A stretch of DNA of 64,000 bases from Squalus acanthias (taxonomy: Eukaryota): NCBI GenBank assembly GCA_030390025.1, contig CM059425.1, positions 28,024,001 through 28,088,000 of the forward strand, in the 5' to 3' direction. This document shows positions 1-63,600 of the stretch, one piece after another; within the stretch, counting starts at the first letter, position 1; the number at the start of each line of letters is the position of its first letter. The translations under genes were made by a program, and so were the position numbers. The notes below the pieces were generated by a model that saw only the letters and a list, made by a program, of their open reading frames with translations, was not told the DNA's origin and ran no database searches.

Positions 1-1069
1 TAATAACCTTGATGAGTTTACAATGATTTAATTTAATTTATGAAGTCACTGGCTGAAAGGCTTCTTCTCATTTGACCCTTCCTTCTGATTTTGGCAATGT
101 TCCAATTTATTTCTTATGCAATTTTACTTCTGCGATAAATTTCCCAGATTTATATTTTAGCAGTTGGTTTCCTAATTCTGTCATGCAGCACAACCATTTT
201 CCGTATCTCGGTTTTGATGGCCTGACTAATGGTTTTCAGAAAAGATCAGTGAGCTGACAGCAAAAGCTCTGTGCAGTCTCTTAAAGACGTGGAGAGGGCA
301 TACGTGTGCTGTATGCCAGAAGAGTTCAGCATGTGCCATGCATGCACTTATTTTACATTTAAGAAATTACCTTCACATTTTGAAGAGTCAGGTCACAAGT
401 GACTTCATGCCGCTACCTTAACCTGATATTAGTAATACATTTTAGGCAGCAATCTGGTGTATGGATGTTGTGGTTAGAAATTGGTTCTTATCAATCTGTT
501 TGAGCCTACAACATTTTAAAATAAAATCTATTATTTGATCTGGCATTTTTGAATGCGGATTATACATATAAAGAGCCTGAGGCTAGGAATAAGATATGTA
601 ATATTTAAGATATGTGTAACACATTTCTAAAATAAGCTTATAATAATTAAGTTTAAAATTTAATGTACAGTAAGGCATCATTCTGAAGAATTCTTCATTG
701 TACATCAATCTTTATTGGAGGCTCTTTGGTATGTTAAAGAAAGAAGCTTTACCATCTGTACTAGTTAAGAATCAAATGAATAATTAAAATTTCACTATAA
801 CCGTAGACTCCTGCACAAGTATGTATGCTTTTCACACGTTGCAACAATCTTATACTCAGCAGTATTTCTGATTTCAGTTGTCAGCAGGTTTAAAATTTGG
901 CAATTATGTCCCAGGAGCACCTGCGCAACTAAAAGGCCTCAAGCCGATCAAATATTGTTCACTTTGAGTCTCTCATCTTCATCATATGAAGATTAATATT
1001 TTCAAATGTCTAAACTTTGCACTAAAAAAATGACAGAGACAAATGGGAGAGAGAAAAGGATAATTTATT

Positions 1070-5969: not shown

Positions 5970-7383
5970 CATAGAATGGTTACAGCACGGAAGAAGGCCA
6001 TTCGTCCTGTCGAGCCCGTGCCAGCTCTCTGCAAGATCACTTCAGCTCATCCCACTCCCCCGCCCTTTCCCCGTAGCCCTGCAAATATCTTTCCTTCAGA
6101 TACTTATCCAACTCCCTTTTGAAAGCCGTGATTGAATCTGCCTCCACCACCCTTTCAGGCAGCGCATTCCAGATCTTAACCACTCGCTGCGTAAAAAAGT
6201 TTTTTCTTACGACTCCTTTGGTTCTTTTGCCAATCACCTTAAATCTGTGTCCTCTGGTTCTCGACCCTTCTGCCAAAGGGAACAGTCTCCCTCTATCTAC
6301 TCTGTCCAGACCCCTCATGATTTTGAATGCCGCTATCAAATCTCCTCTCAATCTTCACTGCTCCAAGGAGAACAACCCCAGCTTTTCCAGTCTATCCACG
6401 TAAATGAAGTCCCTCATTCCTGGAATCATTCTCATAAATCTTTTCTGCACCCTCTCTAAGGCCTTCACATCCTTCCTAAAGTGCGGTGCCCAGAATTGGA
6501 CACAGTACTGCAGTTGAGGCCGAACCAGTGTTTTATACAGGTTCATTATAATTTCCATACTTTTGTACTCAATACTTCTGTTTATGAAGCCCAGGATCCC
6601 GTAAGCCTTTTTAACTGCTTTCTCAACCTGCCCTGCCACCTTCAATGATTTGTGCACACATACCCCCAGGTCTCTCTGTTCGTGCACCCACTTCAGGATT
6701 GTACCATTTAGTTTATATATCCTCTCCTCATTCTTTCTACCAAAATGTATCACTTCCCACTATTCTGCGTTAAATTTCATCTGCCACATGTCCGCCCATT
6801 TCACCAGCTTGTTTATGTCTTCCTGAGGTCTATCACTCTCCTCCTCACTGTTCACTATACTTCCAAGTTTTGTGTCATCTGAAATTTTTTAAATTGTGTC
6901 CTGTACACCCACGTCCAAGTCATTAATATATATCAAGAAAAGCAGTGGTCCTAGAACCGAACCCTGGGGAACACCACTGTATACCTTCCTCCAATCTGAA
7001 AAACAACTGTTCACCACTACTCTGCTTCCCATCACTTAGCCAATTTCGGATCCATGCTGCCACTGTCCCTTTTATTTCATGGGCTTCAACTTTGCTGGCA
7101 AGCCTATTATGTGGCACTTTGTCGAACGCCTTTTGGAAATCCATGTACTCTACGTCAACTGCATTACCCTCATCAACCCTCTCTGTTACCTCATCAAATA
7201 ACTCAATCAAGTTAGTTAAACACGATTTGCTTTTAACAAATCTGTGCTGGCTTTCCTTACTTAATCCACACTTGTCCGTTAATTTTGTCCCTGATTACTG
7301 TTTCTAAAAGCTTCCCCACTACTGAGGTCAAACTGACTGGCCTGTCGTTGCAGGGTTTATCTTTACACCCTTTTTTGAACAAA
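5970..7383 (-). mobile_element. CR1 LINE, 5'-truncated
   Basis: RT motifs YMDFQKAFDKVPH, LVRPQLQYCVQFW and RTRGHRFKV; multiple frameshifts. Confidence 0.93.
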
Positions 7384-7482
7384 AGTGAGAAGTCGCACAA
7401 CACCAGGTTATAGTCCAACAGCTTTATTTAAAATCACAAGCTTTCGGAGCGCTGCTCCTTCGTCAGGTGAAGTGAAGAATAC
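7384..7482 (-). mobile_element. Short Penelope-type terminal-repeat fragment
   Basis: Near-identical to parts of 38594-38757 and 57561-57663; contains a hammerhead motif. Confidence 0.75.
7434..7470 (-). ncRNA. Minimal type I hammerhead ribozyme motif
   Basis: Minus strand reads ucac-CUGACGA-a-GGAGC-agc-GCUCC-GAA-AGCU-U-guga: conserved core, 5-bp stem II, palindromic stem III, 4-bp stem I. Confidence 0.75.
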
Positions 7483-14800: not shown

Positions 14801-16012
14801 TAATTAAATGTAATATATTTGTATTTAAGTAACTTAGTTTACAGTGTAGTTTCCTGACTACTTACTTGATCTACTTTAAGTTAAGGGTACTGAAAGTAAA
14901 TATCTACCTGTAGCACAAAGCACTACAGGTAGTATAGGCAAAAAGCAACAACTCATTCCCCCCTCCTCTGCGAATTCCCACTCTTTCCAAATTCCCAAAT
15001 AAAACACTTTGTTCAAGTCCACTCCGTTTAATCCCGCTCTAAAACGGAGTGTACTTAAACAGAGTGTTTTATTCAGCATTAGTGAAGCCCACCTTTCTGC
15101 CGGATTTTCCAACCATGGACCTGAACAATACAATCAGCATATTTTGATTGATGAAGCTTTGGTTTTTTTTGGAGTGGTGAAGTGCTTAATTTTTTGTTTG
15201 CTAAGATGCTGAATTGTGATAATCACTGGTCTTTTGTGACTGCTTGCATATTGTTTGCTAAAAGTTACAAAAGTAGGGGACTGATAAGAACCCTTCCCAT
15301 TCCAACATATTCATAAGTTCTTCACATTATACAACATATAGTTCTGTTGGCCACCCACATTTGGACACCTGGTAATCTAACTGTAATTTCGTGATTCATC
15401 GCAGGTAGATTGTCAGCAGTGTTGCTTTTTTTCCCTAATTTTCGTGCATAAGCTCATTTTTTTTAAGCATTAACTTGCAGGGAAAAAATTGAAGGAGGGG
15501 CGAGATCACCCTCCTTCTAAATAACTGTCCAGTCCGCATCCTGTGTGGATCTAATATGCCTGACATCTTTACTGGGAAAGCAGTAATTATTGGATGTTAT
15601 CCTCACTTGATCCTTTCACTACACGCTGTTATCCTTTCACTACATGATCCTGATAAATAAACTCTTGTGGTACAGCTTTGTCTCTTTTTTAGCTGGCAGA
15701 GATTCAGGCCATGACTTGATGGATGATTCCCTTAAGCTGCTTTATGCACAGATGTGCTGTTGTGGAGTGTCAGGATAATTTTACAAATTGTGCACTGACC
15801 CCTTTGTTTTAGTCCTCAGCTTCCTCAGTCACTTCCGCTGGATAGCTCTTTTCTCTGCTTTTCTTTCATTTTTAAATTTGCAGATGGTCACATTTTTATT
15901 TTATTTGCTGTCTTACCCTTGAGATCTTACTTGTTCTCTCGCACGTTTGCAAAATTTACTGGCTCACACGTCACCACCTCTGCTGCAGTTCCAGTGTATT
16001 TAACAACTGTCT

Positions 16013-16382: not shown

Positions 16383-17227
16383 TGTAAGCTTTTTATTTCG
16401 AGTGGCATTAAGTTGACAGCAAGACCAATTCTTTTGAAACAATTTGGAATAAGTTTATTAAACACACACAGTCATGCAAGTTTATTAAACACACACACAC
16501 TCATGCAAGTTTATTAAACACACACACACTCATGCACATCAAAACAATAGCCTACTGGTATTTATGGACCCTACTCGATTACAACTCGTAAGGTAACTGC
16601 CTAAGAAGGTAAGAATGGGTTAGATTTACACAGACTGGTACTTCCCTGAGTTAAGCAATGCACGCGGCCTTTTTCCTTGCTTCTTGGTCTGGTCTGTACA
16701 TCATGGTCTGTATGACTGTTGGACTATAACCTGGTGATGTGCGACTTCTCATCATGGTCTGTAGAGGGAGGGCTTCTTGTTCTTCCGCGTGGTCGTCCAG
16801 AGAGAGAGAGAGAGAGCCTTTGGTTCCTTGTTTTTATATCTTTTTAAAGTCCATTGTCTTCTAGTTTAAATTGCTAAGATGCCATGATTGGGTCTTAGAT
16901 TCTGGCAGTTCTTGATTGACTTTCCTTTGAACATGTCTGTCTGCAGTGGCTGGTGCCATTTCTTGCTAAAGTTAATTGTTTGTTGACACCTTTTAGTGGC
17001 TCTTGAGTTTCGATGGTGAGTTTCGATGGTGAGTTTCGATGGTGAGTTTCGATGGTGAGTTTCGATGGTGTCTCTGTGGGGGGTTATCCTGTTTTGCAGG
17101 TTTCCTTTGTTAAGTTTCGCACCGTTGCCTTACCCAGGGGAGATCCACACACATCAAATTTATCTTTATCTTATATTAATAGTCTCGAGTCCATCACACA
17201 TACAAAACATATATTTTTATTCTTACA
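16383..17227 (-). repeat. 3' LTR (845 bp)
   Basis: Inverted termini TGTAAG...CTTACA. Purine tract aaggcgggga lies just upstream on the minus strand. Minus-strand TATA-like motif near 16835 and AATAAA near 16455. Confidence 0.82.
17005..17070. repeat. 13-bp tandem repeat (gagtttcgatggt) x5 inside the LTR
   Basis: Read directly from the sequence. Confidence 0.95.
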
Positions 17228-27700: not shown

Positions 27701-28955
27701 AAGATTTTCTCCAGAGATTATCATCAAGCTCATTTGTTCGCTTTACAATTATTTTTGAAAGAGCATCTCATCATATAAAAATACTTCAGTAAGGTGTGAG
27801 ACTGTCACCCTCTACAAGGAAAGGAAAGGTGCAGTCTGTTAAGGGATAAAGAGCAAGTTGTCTATCACAACAGTATGCACTCTTATCCAAATCTTCAAAC
27901 ATGATAAATGCCTGTTGCTGCAATGAAAATCCCTCAGTGATCTCCCGAAATTCGAACCAGCAGTAGGGCTGTTTGTGGAGGCCTGACAGGCACCGGCAGC
28001 TCACCCATATTATTTGGGTAAGGCCCGAGGCCCAATTTCAGGCCTGCCTCAGGTTTCCTGGTTTGGGCGGCATTGCAGCCACATCTATGTCTCTGTGCCC
28101 GAAGTCGGCCACCGATGATTTTCCACCCTGTGGAATATATTTTTGTTAAACAGGTAACTCTGTCCTATTAGAATTAGACAGAAAATTCTTTATTTCTTTC
28201 GTTTAGAAATAATTTATGATCACATTTAATCCAGAACTTTGAATAGCATTTCCACAATAAACTTTCATGGCTGGAATTAACTATTTCAGGCAGTCACCAG
28301 AGCAGCTCAGTATATTCTGGACTGAATCCGTTCAAAACTCTACTCCTATTTGAATTAACTTGCATATACTGGTATAAAAAAAGGGTGCATTTTGGAGCTG
28401 GAGATCTTCTAAATCAATAAACAGCTCTTGCCGTCTGAATAAATAAATTGGTGCGGCGCTCTTCACTTAAGGCTTCATGGGAGAACCGTTTTTGTGCTTA
28501 ACAAATCTGGCATGCAAAACTGTTGCACTGCATTAATGACTGAAGGACTTTTTTAACACAGGAAATGTATAATATATTAAGACACATAATTCTAGGTGTA
28601 CAGTACCGTGGAATCATTAAAAATTAATCAAACTATTTTTAGATTATAAATATCTTACTCGAGGGAGCTGGTTCTCAGAGAAACGTTGCTTGTGTAGCAT
28701 TTTATGTTTAGTTGAGGGATTTCTTTTAATTGATTGATAATTATAAGATCATAAATAATTCTGTATCTCGCTGTCAAATCATGAGTAGTAAGCTGTGGGA
28801 TTTTATCAATTTAGTTGGCCATTTAATGATTAGCTGAAACTTTATTAACAGTGTAATCAATGAACACTAATTCATAACGATTATGGAAAGTGATGCTACC
28901 GATTCTTCATCAGAAACCAAAAGGTGCCTTGTTAAAACGAACGGGTCATATTTCT

Positions 28956-30715
28956 ACAATAGCAAAATACTGCGGATGCTGGAAAACTGAAATAACAACA
29001 GAAAGCGCTGGAAAAACTCAGCAGGCCAGGCAACATCCGTGGAGAGAGAAACAGAGTTAACGTTTCAGGTCGAAGACCCTTCGTCAGAACTGAGAAAAAA
29101 GCAGGAAATGAAACAGATTAAAAAGCAAGTTGGAGGCTGGGGGAGGGAATGAAAGAACAAAAGGGGAGGTCTGTGAGAAGTAGAGACATTAAGAGATGCT
29201 TAAGGTGAGACGAGATGGTAATAGGACAGGTTAAGAAACAAAAGATGGCTCGGAAGTGTGAAATGCGCTGGCAGAATGAAAGACAGCTGCCATGGGGGAG
29301 AGAAAAAAAAAGGGAAAAGGCACAAACCAAAAGTTTGGATAAAAAAAAAATATATATATATGGTAGGGGCCGAGGTTATGATCTGAAATTGTTGAACTCG
29401 ATATTGAGTCCGGAAGGCTGTAAAGTGCCTAATCGGAAGATGAGGTGCTGTTCCTCGAGCTTACACTGAGCTTCCGTGGAACAATGCAAGAGGCCGAGGA
29501 CAGTGAGGTCTGAGTGGGCGTGGAGTGGCGAATTAAAATGACAAGCGACCGGAAGCTCGGGGTCACCCTTATGGACTGAACGGAGGTGTTCCGCAAAGAG
29601 GTCACCCAATCTGCGTTTGGTCTCCCCAATGTAGAGGAGACCACATCGTGAGCAGCGAATACAGTATACTAGATTGCAAGAAGTACAAGTAAATCGCTGT
29701 TTCACCTGGAAGGGGTGTTTGGGGCCCTGGAGAGTGGGAAGGGGGGATGTATAAGGGCAGGTGTTGCATCTCCTGCGCTTGCACGGGAAGGTGCCGGGCG
29801 AGGGGGAAGGGGTGCTGGGGGTGATGGAGGAGTGGATTAGGGTGTCTCGGAGGGAGCGGTCCCTATGGAATGCTGAAAGGGGAGGTGAGAGGAAGATGCG
29901 TTTGGTGGTGGGATCACGTTAGAGGTGGCGGAAATGGCGGAGGATGATCCGTTGAATGTGGAGGCTGATGGGGTGAAAGGTGAGGACAAGGGGAACTCTA
30001 TCGTGGTTCCGGGAGGGAGGGGCCGGGGTGAGGGCAGAAGTGCGGGAGATAGAACGGACACGGTCGAGGGCCGTGTCAACCACAGTAGAGGGGAATCCTC
30101 GGTTGAGGAAAAAGGAAGACATGTCGGAAGCACTGGTATGGAAGGTGGCATCGTCAGAGCAGATGCGGCAGAGACAGAGAAACTGGGAGAAGGGAATAGA
30201 GTCCTTACAGGAGGCGGGGTTGGAGGAAGTGTAGTCCAGGTAGCTGTGGGAGTCAGTGGGCTTGTAGTGAATGTTGGTCAATAACCTATCCCCCAGAGAT
30301 GGAGACGGAGAAGTCGAGGAAGGGAAGGGAAGAGTCGAAGATGGACCATGTGAAGGTGAGGGAAGGGTGGAAAGTGGAGGCAAAGTGAATGAAATTGTCT
30401 AGTTCAGGGCGAGAGCAGGAAACGGCACCGATACAGTCATCAATGTACCGGAAAAAGAGGTGAGGGGACCCGAGTAGGACTGGAACAAAGAGTGTTCCAC
30501 ATATCCCACGAAAAGGCAGGCATAGCTAGGACCCATGCGGGTACCCATAGCAACACCTTTGATTTGGAGGAAATGAGTGGAGTCAAAGGAGAAGTTGTTC
30601 AACGTGAGAACAAGTTCAGCCAGGCGGAGGAGGGTGCTGGTGGATGGGGACTGGTTGGGCCTCTGTTCAAAGAAGAGGCGGAGCGCCCTCAGGTCATCCT
30701 GGTGGGGGATGGAGG
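28956..30715 (-). mobile_element. Penelope-like element (RT C-terminus, GIY-YIG endonuclease, terminal repeat), 5'-truncated
   Basis: FLQIKGVAMGTRMGPSYACLF; HYKPTD; LVYCIRCSRCGLLYIGETKRRL...EH. Confidence 0.93.
29055..29091 (-). ncRNA. Minimal hammerhead ribozyme motif in the Penelope terminal repeat
   Basis: aguu-CUGACGA-a-GGGUC-uuc-GACCU-GAA-ACGU-U-aacu. Confidence 0.72.
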
Positions 30716-33371: not shown

Positions 33372-33808
33372 GTTATGATACTTGGAGGATGTGCAGTGAT
33401 AATGGAAATATCTCCGACCTCTTGAGAATGCCATTTTATATCGTCCAGCACCCTTCTGGAGATATCCTAGGCAACACTGGCCCTAATTTCCTACCTTTTG
33501 TGGTAGCTCAGCACTGGAAGTGCAGGATTGTTGAATTCACTCTCTACTCTATGCAGACTTGAAAGGGATCCTTCAACCAGGTTTTTCAATTTAAGAAAAA
33601 TGCTCCAATTCTGCTCTCATTCATTATGGAAGGACTTTCCTAATCAGTGCAGTAGTAATTAGATGTAACTAGAATTTGACAAGGAGAAAAAATCCTATTG
33701 GCTGGTTGCCCAGGATATCTCCAGAAGGCTGCTGGACAATATAAAATGGCATTCTCAAGAGGTCTGAGATACTTCCATTATCACTGCACATCCTCCAAGT
33801 ACCATAAC
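33372..33808. repeat. Long inverted repeat, 104-bp arms (33372-33475 and 33705-33808)
   Basis: Arms are reverse complements with few mismatches; 229-bp spacer. Confidence 0.9.
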
Positions 33809-36553: not shown

Positions 36554-36753
36554 GAGGTAGATTTGTATCTTTACTGCGTTAAACATCACCTGGGTGGAGC
36601 ACAGGAAGGAAAGTCTGGCGGGGAGGATCACATGCACCTTACAGAACCGACTGGATATTTCTCCAATTACCAGCGTACAAGCCTCCCCGCCAGATTTTCC
36701 TTTCTGTGCTCCACTCAAGTGATGCCCAGGCGGTAAAGATGAAAATCTACTCC
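36554..36753. mobile_element. 200-bp fold-back MITE with arms of about 72 bp
   Basis: 36554-36626 pairs with 36682-36753; termini gaggtagattt / aaaatctactcc. Confidence 0.8.
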
Positions 36754-38593
36754 ATAGTCTTAAGATATGAGAAAGAAAGAGCCTGAATTTATATAACACC
36801 TTTTCGCATCCTCAGGACATCCCAAAGCACTTTACATCCAATAAGGAGATGAAGATTTTCGTTGTCTTAAATGGTATAAACAAGATAATATCTAGTTGTT
36901 CCTTATTGGTAGCTTCAACACTGACAAGTTTCGTTAAATCAGAAAATCACTGGTTCTGCACACTGCTGCATCACACATATAGCTGCTGTTTTATTCAACA
37001 CACTCAGTAATATTCTATCCACTGGCAACATTTGGCACTTTTTATTTGTTTCGAATTGACACGTTTCACCTCCAGTCCACACAAGTAATTGTGTACAATT
37101 TTCACACAAAAATACATTGAAATATTGTGATAAGTGAGAGAAACAAACTAAAATAATGACCGAACTTCATTCCTGTAATACAGGTCGTTTCAGAAGGAAA
37201 CCTGCAGTTTATTTTTATGATCGTTTTCTCACCCACATCAACACTATTGTCCCAGGTGCCAGGGTGCTTCAGTCACAGTTGTTTTCTTTGAATGCCATTA
37301 ACAAATCGGGATGAAAGCTTGGCAGACACTGGACTCTCGTTTTTTTTAAAAATCAAATGAATACATTTCAAAGTCTCACATAGCCTTTTAACAAAAATCT
37401 CTATAGTTTAATGTGACTTGCTGAATCTGCTTTGAATTTATATCAGCTTTGGGAACCCCCACCCTCCACAGTCCATTTTTAACATTTGGATTATTGGAGT
37501 TCTTTGCTTTCCTACCTGCATTTGAAAGCATTTTGCTAACCATGAACTTCTGTGAAAGAACAATTTAGGGAACAAAGTAGGCCAGCATCTGAAATAGGAA
37601 GTTCCCTGTCAAGTACATAATGAGATTACTACAGGCGCATTGCTTTTGAAGTCAAATCCCACATCTGAAAAGGTAGATTAAAGAAGGGATTGTCACTGAA
37701 TTGCTATGAAGTACAAAGGTGATGCTTTGCATAAGAATAATTTACCCATGATGAAAAGGCTAGAGGAGAATAAAAGCAGCATAATGGACCAAGGTGGACT
37801 GCAGCAGCATTTTCATTGTAATGTTATTTTAAATATCATGATGTGGATATTTTAAATATGACTGTTTTCATTTGCCAGGCCTTAAAACAGCCAGCTCAAG
37901 TACACGTGAGTTACTGGATACAGCTGTTCTTTTTAGCAATAAATATCCAATGTTAGCTGCTACATACATAATCACCTATGTTGGCAGAATTTGCAAGAGC
38001 AGATTTATCTAATAAAATATGGTTACATTAGCTCTGTGACATATAAACTTAAAATATACCCAACATCTGTGCATTTGAAATTGTAATCGAAAATGTATTT
38101 CAGATACAACCAATAGTGAGAACTAATGCATGAATGTAAATATTTAAGATTCAAAAATTTGCCTTCAGTACATTTACTAAGTGTACAGAAGAAATATCTT
38201 TATAGAAAATGAACTTTGGTGGAAAAGTTAAATTATAATTAGAGATTGAATTTATTGTTGTCATCTTTTCAGAACAAGCCTTTAATGTACATTTTAGTGA
38301 CTATAGGTTGTTGCACAATACGCTTTTTCGACGCTGACCCAATATGCTAAACATGTATTGTACATCAGTCTATTTATAATGCACCCTACTGATTTTTTTT
38401 TATTTTCAATAAAATGTAAAATTGAAGACTGTAAAAGTGTTTTTTTTAAGCATTTGTATGTTCTTTTGCAGCAGATTCTTTGACTTTCTTGATTAACAAG
38501 CAAATATATTATCGAACGACTTATAGTACAGTACTACAACATGAGCTCTGTTCAATACATGCTGAAAGATTATAAAATGACAATGATAAATTA

Positions 38594-38757
38594 TGATGCG
38601 GAGATGCCGGTGTTGGACTGGGGTGGACAAAAATGAGAAGTCGCACAACACCAGGTTATAGTCCAACAGTTGTATTTAAAATTACGAGCTTTCGGAGCTC
38701 TGCTCCTTCGTCAGGTACAGGTACAGTGAGGGAATACAAATCGATTACACAGTATAT
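38594..38757 (-). mobile_element. Short Penelope-terminus insertion with 12-bp TSD
   Basis: aatgataaatta duplicated at 38582-38593 and 38758-38769. Confidence 0.8.
38683..38717 (-). ncRNA. Minimal hammerhead ribozyme motif
   Basis: uac-CUGACGA-a-GGAGC-aga-GCUCC-GAA-AGCU-C-gua. Confidence 0.75.
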
Positions 38758-39188
38758 AATGATAAATTAAAGTAACGTTTTAATCAACATCTTAAATTTA
38801 TCGTTTGTAAGTTCCTCATGTTATTCAACTGCTGCTGCGGGGTAGTATTCAACAGTGTAATGGACTGCGAGTCGGTTGAGTTCTACTCAGTAAAAGAAGG
38901 AACAGACTTGCAGGGCTTGAGAACAAATGGCGTTACACAGGGAAGACTACATTTGGAAAATGTAAAAAAGGAATGAAATGCCTTTACTGAAGAGTTTGTG
39001 GCACGTTGAGTCTATCACCCGGCTGGGTACTGCTCTTGCCATTGAGTATAACCGTCAGTTTTCAGCTCTTATCATGACTTATCCTCTCAGCCTATCCAGC
39101 AGGCTAACAATGCAAGTAACAATGTGCTTAAGGGAAAGTTGGTCAAGTTAATACCTGAATATAATGGCAACTTTTTAAGCTTTCAATT

Positions 39189-55984: not shown

Positions 55985-56576
55985 GGCCTAGAAATTCATT
56001 GGTGCCCCGCCTGTATTTCAAGCACAAAACGGGCACTTAAGCGTCCAATTTTGGATCGGGCTGCTCCATAGGCGCCTAGGGCATGCACTGGAAGCATGTT
56101 AAATGCTGAATAATGTATTTAAATAAAGATCCTACACTTGTGATAAACTCGCTCATCAACTCAAGGCATTAAGAGGCAGGAAGGTTTGCAGCAACTCTAT
56201 TTAAAGGGCTCATTCACTACATATGGGTTGGCTGCTGGTTTGTCTTTTTCGGCTGCTGGTTAATTTCTGGTTATGTTTTGGCCTGTTTTCTAACTTGTAA
56301 AAGTTAATTCTGACATCTGCAAAGTTTTTCTGCTGGTGCTGCCTGTTTTCGGCTGCGTTTTACTGCAGTCATGGATGGTTTAAAAGGACTGCCTTTGGGG
56401 CTGGACAATGAGGGGGGTGCAGCAAAGCAGACAGGAGATAGCAGGAGAAGCTGGGCGAAGAGGGAGGAGGAGGGGGTGGGCACTGCGCAGGAGGCCATAC
56501 CCACAGCAGGTCTTCAGGGAGCACTTCTCCTACCTGAAGTTCTCTGAGGAGCAATGTATGAGGTTCCTTCGCTTCA
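55985..56576 (+). mobile_element. Harbinger terminal fragment with transposase N-terminus, truncated by a Penelope element
   Basis: TIR GGCCTAGAAATTC; ALRRRPYPQQVFREHFSYLKFSEEQCMRFLRFT matches the start of the Harbinger B transposase. Confidence 0.82.
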
Positions 56577-57172
56577 CTCCCACTGAGACCTCACCGTCCT
56601 CGGCCTCTTGCATTGTTCCATGGAAGCTCAGCATAAGCTCGAGGAACAGCACCTCATCTTTCGATTAGGCACTTTACAGCCCTCTAGACTCAACATAGAG
56701 TTCAACAATTTCAGATCATAACCTCGGCCCCTATCAAATATATATATATTTTTTTATCCACACTTTTTGTTTGGCCTTTTTTCTTCCCTCCTACATGGCA
56801 GCTGTCCTTCATTCTGCCAGTGCAATTCACACTTCATCGAGAGCCATCCTTTGTTCCTTCACCTGTCCCATTACCACCTCCTCATGCCTTGAATATCTCT
56901 TAATGTCTCTCAATGTCTCTTAATCTCTCCTGCCTTCCATCCTATCACTGACCTTCCCTTTTGTTCTTTCATCCCCTCCCCCTTTTCCCAGCCCCTAAAC
57001 TTGCTTTAAAATCTATTCCATTTCCTGCTTTTTTCCAGTTCTGATGAAAGGTCTTCGACCTGAAACGTTAACTCTGTTTCCCTCTCCACGGATGCTGCCT
57101 GGCCTGCTGAGTTTTTCCAGCGTTTTCTGTTGTTATTTCGGATTTCCAGCATCCGCAGTATTTTGCTATTGT
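56577..57172 (+). mobile_element. Penelope-like 3' fragment, same family as 28956-30715 in opposite orientation
   Basis: KLEEQHLIFRLGTLQP..LNIEFNNFRS stop, followed by the shared terminal repeat. Confidence 0.92.
57037..57073 (+). ncRNA. Minimal hammerhead ribozyme motif
   Basis: aguu-CUGAUGA-a-AGGUC-uuc-GACCU-GAA-ACGU-U-aacu. Confidence 0.72.
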
Positions 57173-57560
57173 ATCTGTATATCTTTATTTCTCTTCCAAA
57201 ATCATTATTTTTAAAGTCTGCCTTTTTAAAAGAACATTGAGCCATCCCATCCACACTGTATCTCATGCCCTATATAGTCATTCTTTGTGAGTTTGGTTTA
57301 TTTATTCCATGGTCAACATTGGGAGAAGTTCTTGCTGCTCTCTGAAGCTATCTAGGGCCAGGTTTTTTATATTTATACAAGGAAGAAAACAAACAGATCA
57401 AGTACATGGGGTCATCGCAATTAAGCTAGACGTCATCACAGTAATACATTCAACAAGCCTAAAGGCAAGATCCAGGCATTGCCTCTACTCTGGATATCTG
57501 TGTTCCAGGAATTGAATTACTGATTACGTTACAAAAACACCATGTGCTTTTCTATAGTGG

Positions 57561-57663
57561 TCATGATGCGGAGATGCCGGTGTTGGACTGGGGTGGACAA
57601 AATTGAGAGGTCGCACAACACCAGGTTATAGTCCAACAGTTTTATTTGAAATCACAAGCTTTT
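57561..57663 (-). mobile_element. Short Penelope-terminus insertion with 13-bp TSD
   Basis: ttttctatagtgg at 57548-57560 and 57664-57676; homology to the other copies stops inside the hammerhead motif. Confidence 0.8.
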
Positions 57664-58179
57664 TTTTCTATAGTGGCAGCCCACCTACGTCTTGAGGGTT
57701 TCCATCTGTATCCTTATTTGGACAATTGGCTGGCAATAGCTTTGTTGAAATAGGTCAGTATGAGCTGTTCAGAATCCAGCTTTCAGATTACAGCAGTTAA
57801 AGCTTTTGAAAAACCTGAAAATGCGCAGATGGAATGTTCCCAGAATATCATCTTAATAGGAACTGAATTCCAGCCTTTCAAATAATAGTCTTCGTGCCAA
57901 AGGAGCATTTGCACTACAGGAAATGGGATACTAAAACAGCCTATTTCAGGACTCGGGGAATGTTGAGATCCCAGACGGTTTAATGAAAGGAAAGTACAGG
58001 AGGTGTATATCTTTTACAAAGTACCTTCCCTTTATATATAAAACAAATCTGAAAGCTGTATGCTGAACAACTCAAAGTGGCTTATTCCAAAAAACATCTG
58101 CCAGTTGTCCAAATATAGCTAGCGATGTAATTTAAAGAAATATCACAATTACAATATAATTTGTATTTACAGAGCACCA

Positions 58180-60680: not shown

Positions 60681-63600
60681 GGCCTAGAAATTCGTTAGCC
60701 CCCCGAAAACAGGCATGGGTTGATTGCGTGAACTTTGTGTTGCCTGCTCATTTCCATGATTGCGGCATTCAGCCCAGTACTGAACACGCTGCTGAGTGAC
60801 TGAATGCTCAGCAGGGAACCCAAGTTTGTGCGAGGCTAGCACCACTTAAAGCTAGCCTGCACTACTTAAAGGCAGTCTTCACCTCTTAAAGGGGAGGTAC
60901 ATCTTGTCTGCAACAGCTCATGCAACTGGCTGGAGAAGACAGTGAGAGGAGGAGAAAAGAAAAATTACGTCACAACAGGGGAGAGAGCATGCACCTAGGC
61001 TCTACGATGCAGCACTGGAGGCCTTGGTGCAGGAGGTCAACTCAAGGAGAGAGATTCTCTTCCCACAGGGTGCCAGGAGGCTCTCCAGGCAACAGTGTAA
61101 AGCCCAATGGGAGCAGATAGCCAATGTGGTGAATGCCAGCAGTTTTGCCCTGAGGAACTGGACTCAGTGCAGGAAGAAGTTTAATGACCTCACACGAGTG
61201 GTCAAGGTCAGTAAATTAATCTTCAAATGCCATATCCCACCATCTGCACCATTAGCCTCACACACTGCTCAATGCACCACACCCCCATCACTCACCTACC
61301 AACAATCTCTACCAAACACAACTCATCCCTCACATTCATAGCACTGCTGCAAGCCTCACACCCACATCGCACACCTTGCACACACTGTCAGCTATTCAAC
61401 CACGACAGGCACATCATCCAAACACATTGCACTACACTCACTGACACACTTCCTTTCCCTTTACAGGAAAAGGTGGCTTACAACCAGCGCCAGCAGGACC
61501 TAACCAGCAGGGAAAAGCGTGCCTGCATAAGCTGACCCCCATGGAGGAGACAGTGCTGGCCAATCTTGGCAGGGGCATGGCTGAGCCCATGGCCAGCAGC
61601 AGGGCTGAAAGAATAAAAGATGACGGTATCCTCATACATAATCCTCTTTCTCACATCTCACTTCCCCCTCATCCCACAATCTCTTCTGATTTATAAGCTG
61701 CACATGGTGTAAGTATGCACATCTTGCTTTCTTCCCCTCCCCTCACCACAACCCTACCCTTGTGCCAAGAAATCCAACCTGTCCAGCCAGTGATGCAAGA
61801 AGAAGAGGGAGAGGAGAGTGATGATGAAAAAGAAACACCGTCACTCGAGCTGACACTCGCAGCCACCAGCTCAGATACTGGCACTCCGCGGACCTCAGAG
61901 GGTAGCTTAGAGGCAGGAGCTGCACGTGGTGAGTCACCAGACACGAGTGGGCTGCAGCCAGGGCAGGGGGAAAGGGTAGCGCAGGTGCCAGCTCCCCGGA
62001 GGGCGAGGTCACACATGAGTTCTGCTGCAGGGGACTCAATGAGGACTTCAATGGAGCAGCCTACAGAAGAAGGCTGATGGCTATGCACAACAAAATGCTT
62101 GGTGCATTGGCAGGCCTGCCAGAAAGCCTGAGTGCAATGTCAAGGAGCATGGAGGAGTCCGGCACAAACCTTGCACAGGGCTTTGCGCAGAGCTTGGAGC
62201 CCATCCTTTCCAGCATGGAAGTGATGGCCAACTCCATTAGTGCACTTGTGGACCCAACCATGGTGCAGTGTCTGATGGCCAATGTCTCAGCTTCCATTGT
62301 AGCACAAACAGAAGCCACCCAACATCTGAGTGCTGCAGTGGAAGCTCAGACTTCTGTCAAGCAAGCTTAGACTGCTGCCATTGTGGCTGCGTTTACCAGT
62401 GTGGAAAGGAGCTTGCAGGGTGTCACAGCAGTCCAGCAATCTGTCCTCCAACAGATTACTAGGAGAGCTGAGACGCCACCCTGGGGGAGTGGCAGTGGTT
62501 CCGTGGAGTACGAATTTTCTGTCCTCTCTCAGGATGACAGTATTCGTCCTCCCACCACTGCCACTCCGCCAGTGCCGTGGCACTTGCCTGTCAGCCAGCC
62601 AGCCCGGACTGCTGCCGCCCATGCTGAGGTGGTGCAGTTCACAGCTGGGGCTTCCAGGCCCAGAGCTGCTCGAGGTCATCCTGCAAGGCCATGTGCAGTC
62701 TCCCCCATTGAAAGCCAGCAGCCTTCCACAAGCCATGCTGCAGCCACTGGGGAAACACTTTGTAGGAGCACTAGGACAAGCAAAGGCACACTGAAGACAG
62801 GCACTAAGGCAATGCACAAGGGTGATTAGTTGATTTTGTTATGTAATATTGGATGGATTGATGTGTAAAGTCAGATTGGAATGTTTCTTTTGTGGTGGCT
62901 CTTATTTCAGCATTGTGGCCAAGAGGATGCTGTGATGGTCAGTAACAGAGGGAAGGTAAGGTGTGGGACTATTTTTGAATGGGGAATGCGTTCACTCGTA
63001 CCGCAATTGGATGAGTCGATCTTGGACAGCCCGGGCAGAAAGGGGCTGTCTGGGTTGCCTCCTCCCTTCTGCTTTCTCCTCTTCTGCTTCCTCCTCCTCC
63101 TCTTCCTCCTCCTCAGCTGGTCGCCATATGCCTGGTGCAAGGGCTGTGCCCTCATGATGGCGAGGTTGTGGAGCATGCAGCAGACCACGACAAATCTTGA
63201 GACGCGCTCTAGTGAGTACTCCAGAGCGGTTCAGGCAGCAGAAGCGTTGTTTGCCAATGGTCTGCTCTATCAGATTCCGTGTGGCAGCACAGCTTTCATT
63301 GTACGCATGCTGCCCATGTGTGGTTGGGTTGTGGAGCGGAGTCATGAGCCAGGTAGTCAGCGGAAAGCCCTCGTCACCCAGGACCTACCCTCTAGTTTGT
63401 TGTGGTGGCTCAAAGACTGAGGGAACAGCAGGCTGGCACAAAATAAAAGCATCATGACTGCTGCCAGGATACCGAGCATTCACCATCATGATGATCTGAG
63501 CGTGGTCGCACAGCAACTGCAGTTGCGGTACATCTCAGCATTTAGATGCGGCACCCGCAAAGCCACATGCGTGCAGTCGATGGCGTCCTGCACCATGGAG

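What the first reader, a model, noticed from the sequence alone, without database searches (positions are those of the whole stretch)
38582..38769. Tiny hammerhead-bearing insertion family with its own target duplications
Seen: the same non-coding unit of about 100-165 bp occurs at 7384-7482, 38594-38757 (12-bp TSD) and 57561-57663 (13-bp TSD), with a 37-bp piece at 16713. Two copies contain a complete minimal hammerhead. Their differences preserve pairing: stem I cac/gug versus uac/gua, a change confined to the stem II loop, and cleavage-site U versus C. No coding parent is in the window. Established: Penelope-like terminal repeats carry minimal type I hammerheads with a palindromic stem III that can act as dimers. 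Inference: either an abundant ribozyme-defined non-autonomous retroelement (retrozyme/SINE-like) or extreme truncations of a second Penelope family.
Basis: partly seen in the sequence, partly recalled or inferred. Interest (0 to 1): 0.7.

Follow-up and report, generated by a model that had tools for sequence, protein, structure and literature searches.

The report
Clipped Penelope retroelement ends with hammerhead
These 37-164-base inserts are real, but they are clipped end pieces of a very abundant protein-coding Penelope-type jumping gene, not a separate ribozyme-driven family; the one extra clue is that about a third of such pieces in this genome stop just in front of the ribozyme motif, likely where the element's RNA begins.

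Summary
The retrozyme/SINE reading does not hold. The unit is the terminus (pLTR plus ~40-nt 'tail' ending at the ORF's ATG) of an autonomous Penelope-like element of about 3.14 kb with RT, a Neptune-type Zn linker and a GIY-YIG-like end. 30 of 30 coding copies carry it; the 57561 copy is 102/102 identical to the leader of full-length copies; a 26-mer has 97,107 exact genomic hits. Two fixed 3' ends, variable 5' ends, head-to-head pairs with a one-sided tail (81 of 86) and 12-13-bp duplications are published PLE traits. No short tandem arrays were seen. Residual point: 80 of 250 5' ends fall within 13 nt just upstream of the hammerhead core, about 31 nt below a TATA box, likely run-off to the transcription start (inferred; microhomology blurs it). 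The window's own copies lie outside that class. This scan found the same reading on other DNA. Ordinary; low interest.

The parts
38582..38593 (.). Target-site duplication, left copy (12 bp)
38594..38757 (-). 5'-truncated Penelope-like insertion: end of pLTR plus tail; begins 43 nt upstream of the CUGA core, inside the TATA-like box
   Evidence: 97.6% over all 164 nt to L148, which runs on upstream through the 3' UTR to the ORF stop; 87.8% to the 3' end of coding copy L031
38752..38757 (-). Remnant of the TATA-like box of the pLTR (predicted promoter element)
   Evidence: TATA-like motif 35-45 nt upstream of CUGA in 36 of 37 upstream variants
38681..38720 (-). Minimal type I hammerhead: stem I UAC/GUA, core CUGACGA (38714-38708), extra A, 5-bp stem II, GAAA, palindromic AGCU, predicted cut between 38686 and 38685
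   Evidence: activity untested
38634..38669 (-). Conserved pLTR end; the short 3' end point of the family lies near 38634
38594..38633 (-). ~40-nt 'tail' = leader of the ORF; ends on the A of the start codon; AGUCCAACA (38619-38611) is predicted to pair with UGUUGGACU upstream
38758..38769 (.). Target-site duplication, right copy
57561..57663 (-). Second copy, other subfamily; starts at the GAAA (no hammerhead core), has the tail; 13-bp TSD 57548-57560 / 57664-57676
   Evidence: 102/102 identical to the sequence directly upstream of the ATG of full-length copies L251, L252, L257, L260, L265-L269, L273
7376..7482 (-). Third copy, third subfamily; complete hammerhead 7433-7472 (predicted cut 7438/7437), short 3' end, no tail, no TSD; lies in another repeat
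16713..16749 (+). 37-bp minimal copy (pLTR end only) with its own 14-bp TSD 16699-16712 / 16750-16763

Best explanation
The inserts are clipped terminal pieces of an autonomous Penelope-like retroelement (about 3.14 kb, RT plus a GIY-YIG-like endonuclease, Neptune-type linker), likely written into 12-14-bp staggered cuts by the element's own protein, which likely starts reverse transcription at one of two internal sites about 40 nt apart and stops early. Shown: the unit is the pLTR end plus the leader up to the ORF's ATG; it follows the ORF in coding copies; 3' ends are bimodal; 5' ends vary; TSDs are 12-13 bp; head-to-head pairs carry the tail on one arm. Inferred from the Anolis Poseidon biochemistry (PMC11167929): cutting of both target strands and internal RT starts make the two 3' ends and the pairs. 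Inferred here (about 55%): the many copies that stop 0-11 nt upstream of the hammerhead core are run-off copies of the leader of an RNA starting at a TATA/Inr promoter in the pLTR. The flagged copy reaches about 30 nt past that point, so it would come from the 3' end of a full or read-through RNA. The hammerhead is cargo of the pLTR, predicted to work only as a dimer or with protein help; its cut does not define the ends of these copies.
For: Coding parent: L031 ORF 493 aa with YIDD, CHSNLCKTC and VVYLIRC..WYIGET; RVT_1 E 2.4e-9 above cut-off; 87 of 87 scored hits at 96-100% identity from 65,728 candidates; terminus after the stop in 30 of 30; 20 of 30 loci 95-98% like the flagged unit have ORF sequence within 1.5 kb. 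Full-length pLTR-tail-ATG-ORF-pLTR copies L046 and L150; 429 exact tail+ATG junctions, some in tandem at 3138-3142 bp. 3' ends: 61 short / 2 between / 42 long of 105; 83 / 2 / 63 of 148 in a second set; TSD starts at ATG-2..+8 in 62 of 63 tail arms. 86 head-to-head pairs, tail on exactly one arm in 81, TSD of 8 bp or more in 74 (57 of 12-13 bp) vs 40 of 2000 random flank pairs. 5' pile-up 80 of 250 in -1..+11 vs 13 in +12..+24; second set alone 58 vs 5; TATA-like box in 36 of 37 variants, 31-32 nt above the +7 A in subfamilies B/D; only 2 of 21 full-length copies stop there at the second passage.
Against: No raw RNA reads could be laid, so the start site and cleavage are unobserved. Cap-G test inconclusive: G before +7 in 9 of 17 vs 21 of 66 elsewhere, p 0.16. 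The prediction written beforehand (note) that the pile-up shifts to +11..+15 where the TATA lies further up was met only in direction (median +10 vs +6; 19 of 35 vs 8 of 62 at +10 or more): the mode was +10, only 5 of 35 fell in +11..+15, and the +3/+4 and +10 peaks sit on GTAC microhomologies between the two arms. The pile-up is mostly in paired arms (66 of 170) and not significant in singles with a clean TSD (4 vs 1). The Inr consensus fits only some subfamilies. Pfam gives no GIY-YIG hit; PHROGs only E 0.088. BLAST-based 5' ends can be under-called: the flagged copy scored +29 against a near subfamily but is +43 by direct reading.
Confidence: 0.93

Rival explanations
1. An independent non-autonomous retrozyme/SINE-like family: a short hammerhead RNA that self-cleaves, circularises and is mobilised in trans by the Penelope protein.
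For: Hammerhead pairing is conserved with compensatory changes; about a third of 5' ends cluster; animal retrozymes derive from pLTRs (bioRxiv 10.64898/2026.07.22.740005); four head-to-tail dimers of 122-168 bp exist.
Against: The unit is not permuted at the cut site; ends at the predicted cut are few (7 of 25 ends in the stretch -2..30 lie at 14-17; test on 15-17 gave p 0.07, post hoc); two of four window copies lack the core; short copies match coding subfamilies up to 100%; the dimers join two different subfamilies and no array of three or more short units was seen among about 350 sites.
Confidence: 0.04
2. Same element, but the 5' pile-up comes from junction chemistry or an RT pause, not from an RNA start: two cDNAs anneal through short complementary words (CTTC/GAAG, GTAC) that lie just upstream of the core.
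For: Pile-up strongest in paired arms; several junctions read exactly as GAAG or GTAC overlaps; PMC3846280 ascribes palindromic junctions to self-priming.
Against: Also present in unpaired copies (14 vs 2, p 0.004); sharp fall beyond +12 in B/D; rarely seen at the second passage in full-length copies (2 of 21); canonical TATA spacing.
Confidence: 0.4
3. Solo pLTRs left by recombination or deletion of longer insertions rather than by primary short insertion.
For: The 7376 copy has no TSD; 41 of 77 singles examined show no TSD of 8 bp or more at the called ends; solo pLTRs without TSD are described in PMC3846280.
Against: Three of four window copies have perfect TSDs at both ends with different 5' points, as primary 5'-truncated insertions do; many TSD-less singles are long copies or arms whose partner was not called.
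Confidence: 0.08

Closest known systems
Endonuclease-positive Penelope-like elements, Neptune clade (PMC8557442, passages read)
   Same: Single RT-EN ORF, CX2-5CxxC linker, pLTR with hammerhead, heavy 5' truncation, partial tandems, inverted 5'-truncated copy, 30-40-bp tail on one end.
   Different: Nothing structural; this family was not matched to a named Repbase entry (no such library here) and no phylogeny with named clades was made.
Poseidon of Anolis carolinensis, PAc (PMC11167929, main text read)
   Same: Two 3' end points that bracket a tail; AC-rich predicted stem-loop; AT-rich targets (71.5% AT in TSDs); hammerhead cut not marking insertion ends.
   Different: In PAc the ORF starts inside the hammerhead and RT starts 111-118 nt into the ORF; here the ATG lies about 120 nt downstream of the core and the tail ends on it. 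Here 1-6 nt target/RNA overlaps are in excess (mean 1.38 vs 0.41 shuffled).
Minimal hammerheads of metazoan PLEs (PMC4209133, parts 1-2 of 4 read)
   Same: Extra nucleotide between 9 and 10.1, G10.1-C11.1, palindromic 15.2-16.2, short stem I, mostly single dispersed motifs from truncated PLEs.
   Different: None of note; one subfamily has CCGA in place of CUGA.
Non-LTR retrozymes (bioRxiv 10.64898/2026.07.22.740005, parts 1-3 of 5 read)
   Same: pLTR-derived, type I hammerhead, non-coding.
   Different: Defined by tandem units each with a hammerhead; here dispersed single or head-to-head stubs colinear with coding copies.
Very short Chlamys PLE insertions in Chlamydomonas (PMC9977147, passage read)
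   Same: De novo PLE insertions of median 128 bp through 5' truncation.
   Different: Other clade, microsatellite targets.

Membership tests
EN+ Penelope-like element | Reverse transcriptase ORF directly upstream of the terminus | tested here: met
   RVT_1 E 2.4e-9, 37.6 bits vs cut-off 29.6; 30 of 30 linkage
EN+ Penelope-like element | C-terminal GIY-YIG endonuclease | tested here: inconclusive
   VVY..YIG motif read by eye; no Pfam hit; PHROGs GIY-YIG E 0.088; single-sequence fold unusable, pLDDT 32
EN+ Penelope-like element | pLTR / partial-tandem organisation | tested here: met
   L046, L150; tandem period 3138-3142 bp
EN+ Penelope-like element | Inverted 5'-truncated copy and one-sided 30-40-bp tail | tested here: met
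   86 pairs, 81 with tail on one arm; bimodal 3' ends
EN+ Penelope-like element | Minimal hammerhead in the pLTR | tested here: met
   96.6% of cells paired, covariation 0.216 vs 0.141 shuffled (0 of 500), slid controls at most 0.068; pairs-with-change measure 32 of 500; sequences are related and the core letters were fixed by the search pattern
Neptune clade | CX2-5CxxC Zn-finger-like linker between RT and EN | tested here: met
   CHGNLCKTC / CHSNLCKTC against the motif given in PMC8557442
Neptune clade | RT phylogeny grouping with named Neptune elements | not tested
   no named PLE proteins were fetched
Non-LTR retrozyme | Tandem array of units each holding a hammerhead | tested here: not met
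   12 same-strand neighbours under 1 kb among about 350 sampled sites; four chimeric dimers, no trimer; sample from contig C1 only
Non-LTR retrozyme | Self-cleavage and circular RNA | not testable with these tools
   bench test; no raw RNA run on offer
SINE | Fixed 5' head of its own (tRNA/5S/7SL) and fixed length | tested here: not met
   5' sequence is colinear with the parent's 3' UTR in each copy and varies in length; no Rfam hit

The most novel reading that the evidence does not exclude
A third of this family's insertions are run-off copies of the element's own mRNA leader: the RNA starts at a TATA/Inr promoter 7-13 nt in front of the hammerhead, the protein primes internally at the tail, and two such cDNAs made from opposite target strands join head to head. 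The genome would then hold tens of thousands of fossil records of the transcription start and of two-ended priming, an in vivo counterpart of the in vitro internal-initiation result, with the hammerhead placed at the very 5' end of the mRNA.
Probability: 0.5. Interest if true: 0.45.

Novelty: new member of a known kind. Interest (0 to 1): 0.2.

Why it matters
As a new mobile family it does not matter: it is a known kind of element end. The statistics of ends (two 3' sites, one-sided tail in 81 of 86 pairs, 12-13-bp stagger, 5' pile-up below a TATA box) give concrete, testable constraints on the still unsettled insertion mechanism of Penelope-like elements, and warn that such stubs can pass for retrozymes or SINEs in repeat annotation.

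Tried and rejected
Rfam scan of the window: no hit. Folding energy of whole units no better than shuffles (z -0.54, -0.31), so no support from stability. PDB sequence search: none. Sequencing runs: no RNA holder listed, contigs only, so no reads were laid. Protein atlas unavailable for this sequence; single-sequence fold of the endonuclease region unusable. All-against-all 5' extension was confounded by palindromic pairs and replaced by ORF-anchored references. Hammerhead cut site as the 5' end: weak, p 0.07 post hoc, one pair a likely duplicate. Cap-derived G: inconclusive. Spliced intron upstream of stem I as the cause of the pile-up: rejected, since junction sequence is partner arm or target DNA, not a shared exon, and most subfamilies lack an AG there. 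Link to the other Penelope family in the window: termini share no significant DNA similarity, proteins 28.5% identical. Rows dropped: 3 duplicate sites; 4 of 81 singles; variants seen once (85 of 133); the last 4 clusters and the last 7 were not fetched. The Fisher test used 2 of 20; the count is 2 of 21. Five paper searches turned up no paper on a 5' pile-up at the PLE start site; paper supplements and Repbase were not seen and may bear on this.

Full report
1. Observation. The unit is present at 38594-38757(-), 57561-57663(-), 7376-7482(-) and, as a 37-bp piece, 16713-16749(+). Two copies hold a minimal hammerhead on the minus strand (cores at 38714 and 7466) with the differences described. 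Rfam does not detect it, and the whole unit folds no better than shuffles.

2. What it is. The host genome has 3.7 Gb. A 26-mer from the unit occurs exactly 97,107 times, the reversed control 0 times. Among the 30 best DNA matches several run on upstream into an ORF. Locus L031 holds an open 493-aa frame with the RT motif YIDD, a CHSNLCKTC linker and VVYLIRC..WYIGET; window 38591-38759 aligns to its 3' end at 87.8%. A protein search scored 87 of 65,728 candidates, all 96-100% identical; all 30 loci fetched carry the terminus about 200-250 nt after the stop. For the flagged copy's own subfamily, 20 of 30 loci at 95-98% have ORF sequence within 1.5 kb and L148 matches all 164 nt at 97.6% and continues to the ORF stop. 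The 57561 copy is 102/102 identical to the sequence just upstream of the ATG of at least ten full-length copies. L046 and L150 are full-length pLTR-tail-ATG-ORF-pLTR units; 429 exact tail+ATG junctions exist, some repeating every 3138-3142 bp. Pfam RVT_1 passes its cut-off; the GIY-YIG call rests on the motif and a weak PHROGs hit.

3. End statistics. I sampled consecutive pattern hits along contig C1: 105 sites, then 148 sites enriched for two subfamilies, then 97 for two others. 3' ends are bimodal, about 40 nt apart: 61/2/42 of 105 and 83/2/63 of 148; the long end falls on the start codon (62 of 63 within -2..+8). 172 of 253 sites form 86 head-to-head pairs; 81 pairs have the tail on exactly one arm, none on both; 74 have a TSD of 8 bp or more, 57 of them 12-13 bp, against 40 of 2000 random flank pairs; 36 of 77 singles have one. 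5' ends range from inside the ribozyme to over 2.7 kb. All this is the published anatomy of endonuclease-positive PLEs (PMC8557442, PMC3846280, PMC2377424: passages), and the two 3' ends match the two internal RT start sites shown in vitro for Anolis Poseidon (PMC11167929, main text). Very short PLE insertions are also known (median 128 bp, PMC9977147, passage).

4. The hammerhead. 335 sites gave 133 variants; over the 48 seen twice or more plus the two window copies, 96.6% of cells pair; stem I pair 3 is C-G 22 / U-A 25, stem II closing pair C-G 43 / U-A 4, with G-U variants elsewhere. The rows are related and the core was fixed by the search pattern, so this supports a conserved fold, not activity. 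It fits the minimal PLE hammerhead, which showed no monomer cleavage and low dimer cleavage in vitro (PMC4209133, parts 1-2). Its predicted cut does not mark the ends of most copies (weak cluster, p 0.07 post hoc).

5. The 5' pile-up. After dropping 3 duplicates, 80 of 250 5' ends lie from 1 nt inside to 11 nt upstream of the CUGA core, against 13 in the next 13 nt; the window was chosen on the first set and holds in the second (58 vs 5). The mode is the A of TCACTTC/TTACTTC, 31-32 nt below a TATA-like box found in 36 of 37 upstream variants; a TATA/Inr pair in pLTRs is described for rotifer and fly PLEs. Full-length copies stop there only 2 times in 21, which argues against a fixed RT pause. 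Against: the cap-G test failed to reach significance; the pre-registered shift for subfamilies with a more distant TATA came out right in direction but at +10 rather than +11..+15 and on GTAC microhomologies; most pile-up ends are in paired arms. I put the start-site reading at about 55%. The window's copies end at +43, about -23 to -27, +15 and -49, so none belongs to that class.

6. Retrozyme test. Non-LTR retrozymes are tandem units each with a hammerhead (bioRxiv 10.64898/2026.07.22.740005, parts 1-3). Among about 350 sites only four short head-to-tail dimers appeared, each joining two subfamilies, and no trimer. The sample is one contig, so a rare array elsewhere is not excluded.

7. Earlier scan notes. 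A sequence look-up gave nothing; a word look-up showed 18 findings in at least 8 genomes, including this genome, with the same reading, and one with a capped-start reading. I had noted the start-site idea before seeing them; the cap-G test came from that note. They are unchecked AI notes and not counted as support.

8. Verdict. Real, ordinary stubs of a Neptune-type Penelope-like element (93%); independent retrozyme/SINE family 4%. New member of a known kind, interest 0.2. That the motif is typical of cartilaginous fishes is my recollection and comes from no call.

Noticed in passing
window 28955-30632 (-) and 56572-57173 (+): A different Penelope-like family: broken RT/GIY-YIG frame at 29403-30632 (28.5% to P0001) and hammerhead-like cores CUGAnGA-A-GGUC/GACC-UGAAAC at 29087(-) and 57041(+) with UGAAA in place of CGAAA.
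   Followed up: partly
L187, L192, L276, L314: Head-to-tail dimers of 122-168 bp that join ends of two different subfamilies, suggesting template switching between RNAs or insertion at an earlier copy's end; possible seeds of retrozyme arrays.
   Followed up: no
TSD table: The same 12-bp target recurs at independent loci inside other repeats (TCTATTTATGAA 4 times, TATCTCATAGAA, GAGTATATTCAA twice each); TSDs are 71.5% AT, often start with T and end with A, hinting at a loose palindromic target preference.
   Followed up: partly
window 57548-57560 and tail arms: Target ends overlap the RNA just past the tail by 1-7 nt more often than chance (mean 1.38 vs 0.41 shuffled; 7 nt at 57561), suggesting primer-template pairing; maximal TSD extension may inflate this.
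   Followed up: partly
L126:5199-5239, L168, L174, L253: A subfamily with CCGA instead of CUGA in the core and a compensatory U-A closing pair in stem II.
   Followed up: no
window 31913 (+): Isolated CUGAAGA-GAU/AUC-GAAA match with a 3-bp stem; probably chance.
   Followed up: no
window 36557-36750, 14998-15073, 62481-62572, 33372-33808: Palindromes or inverted repeats seen in the self-comparison of the window.
   Followed up: no
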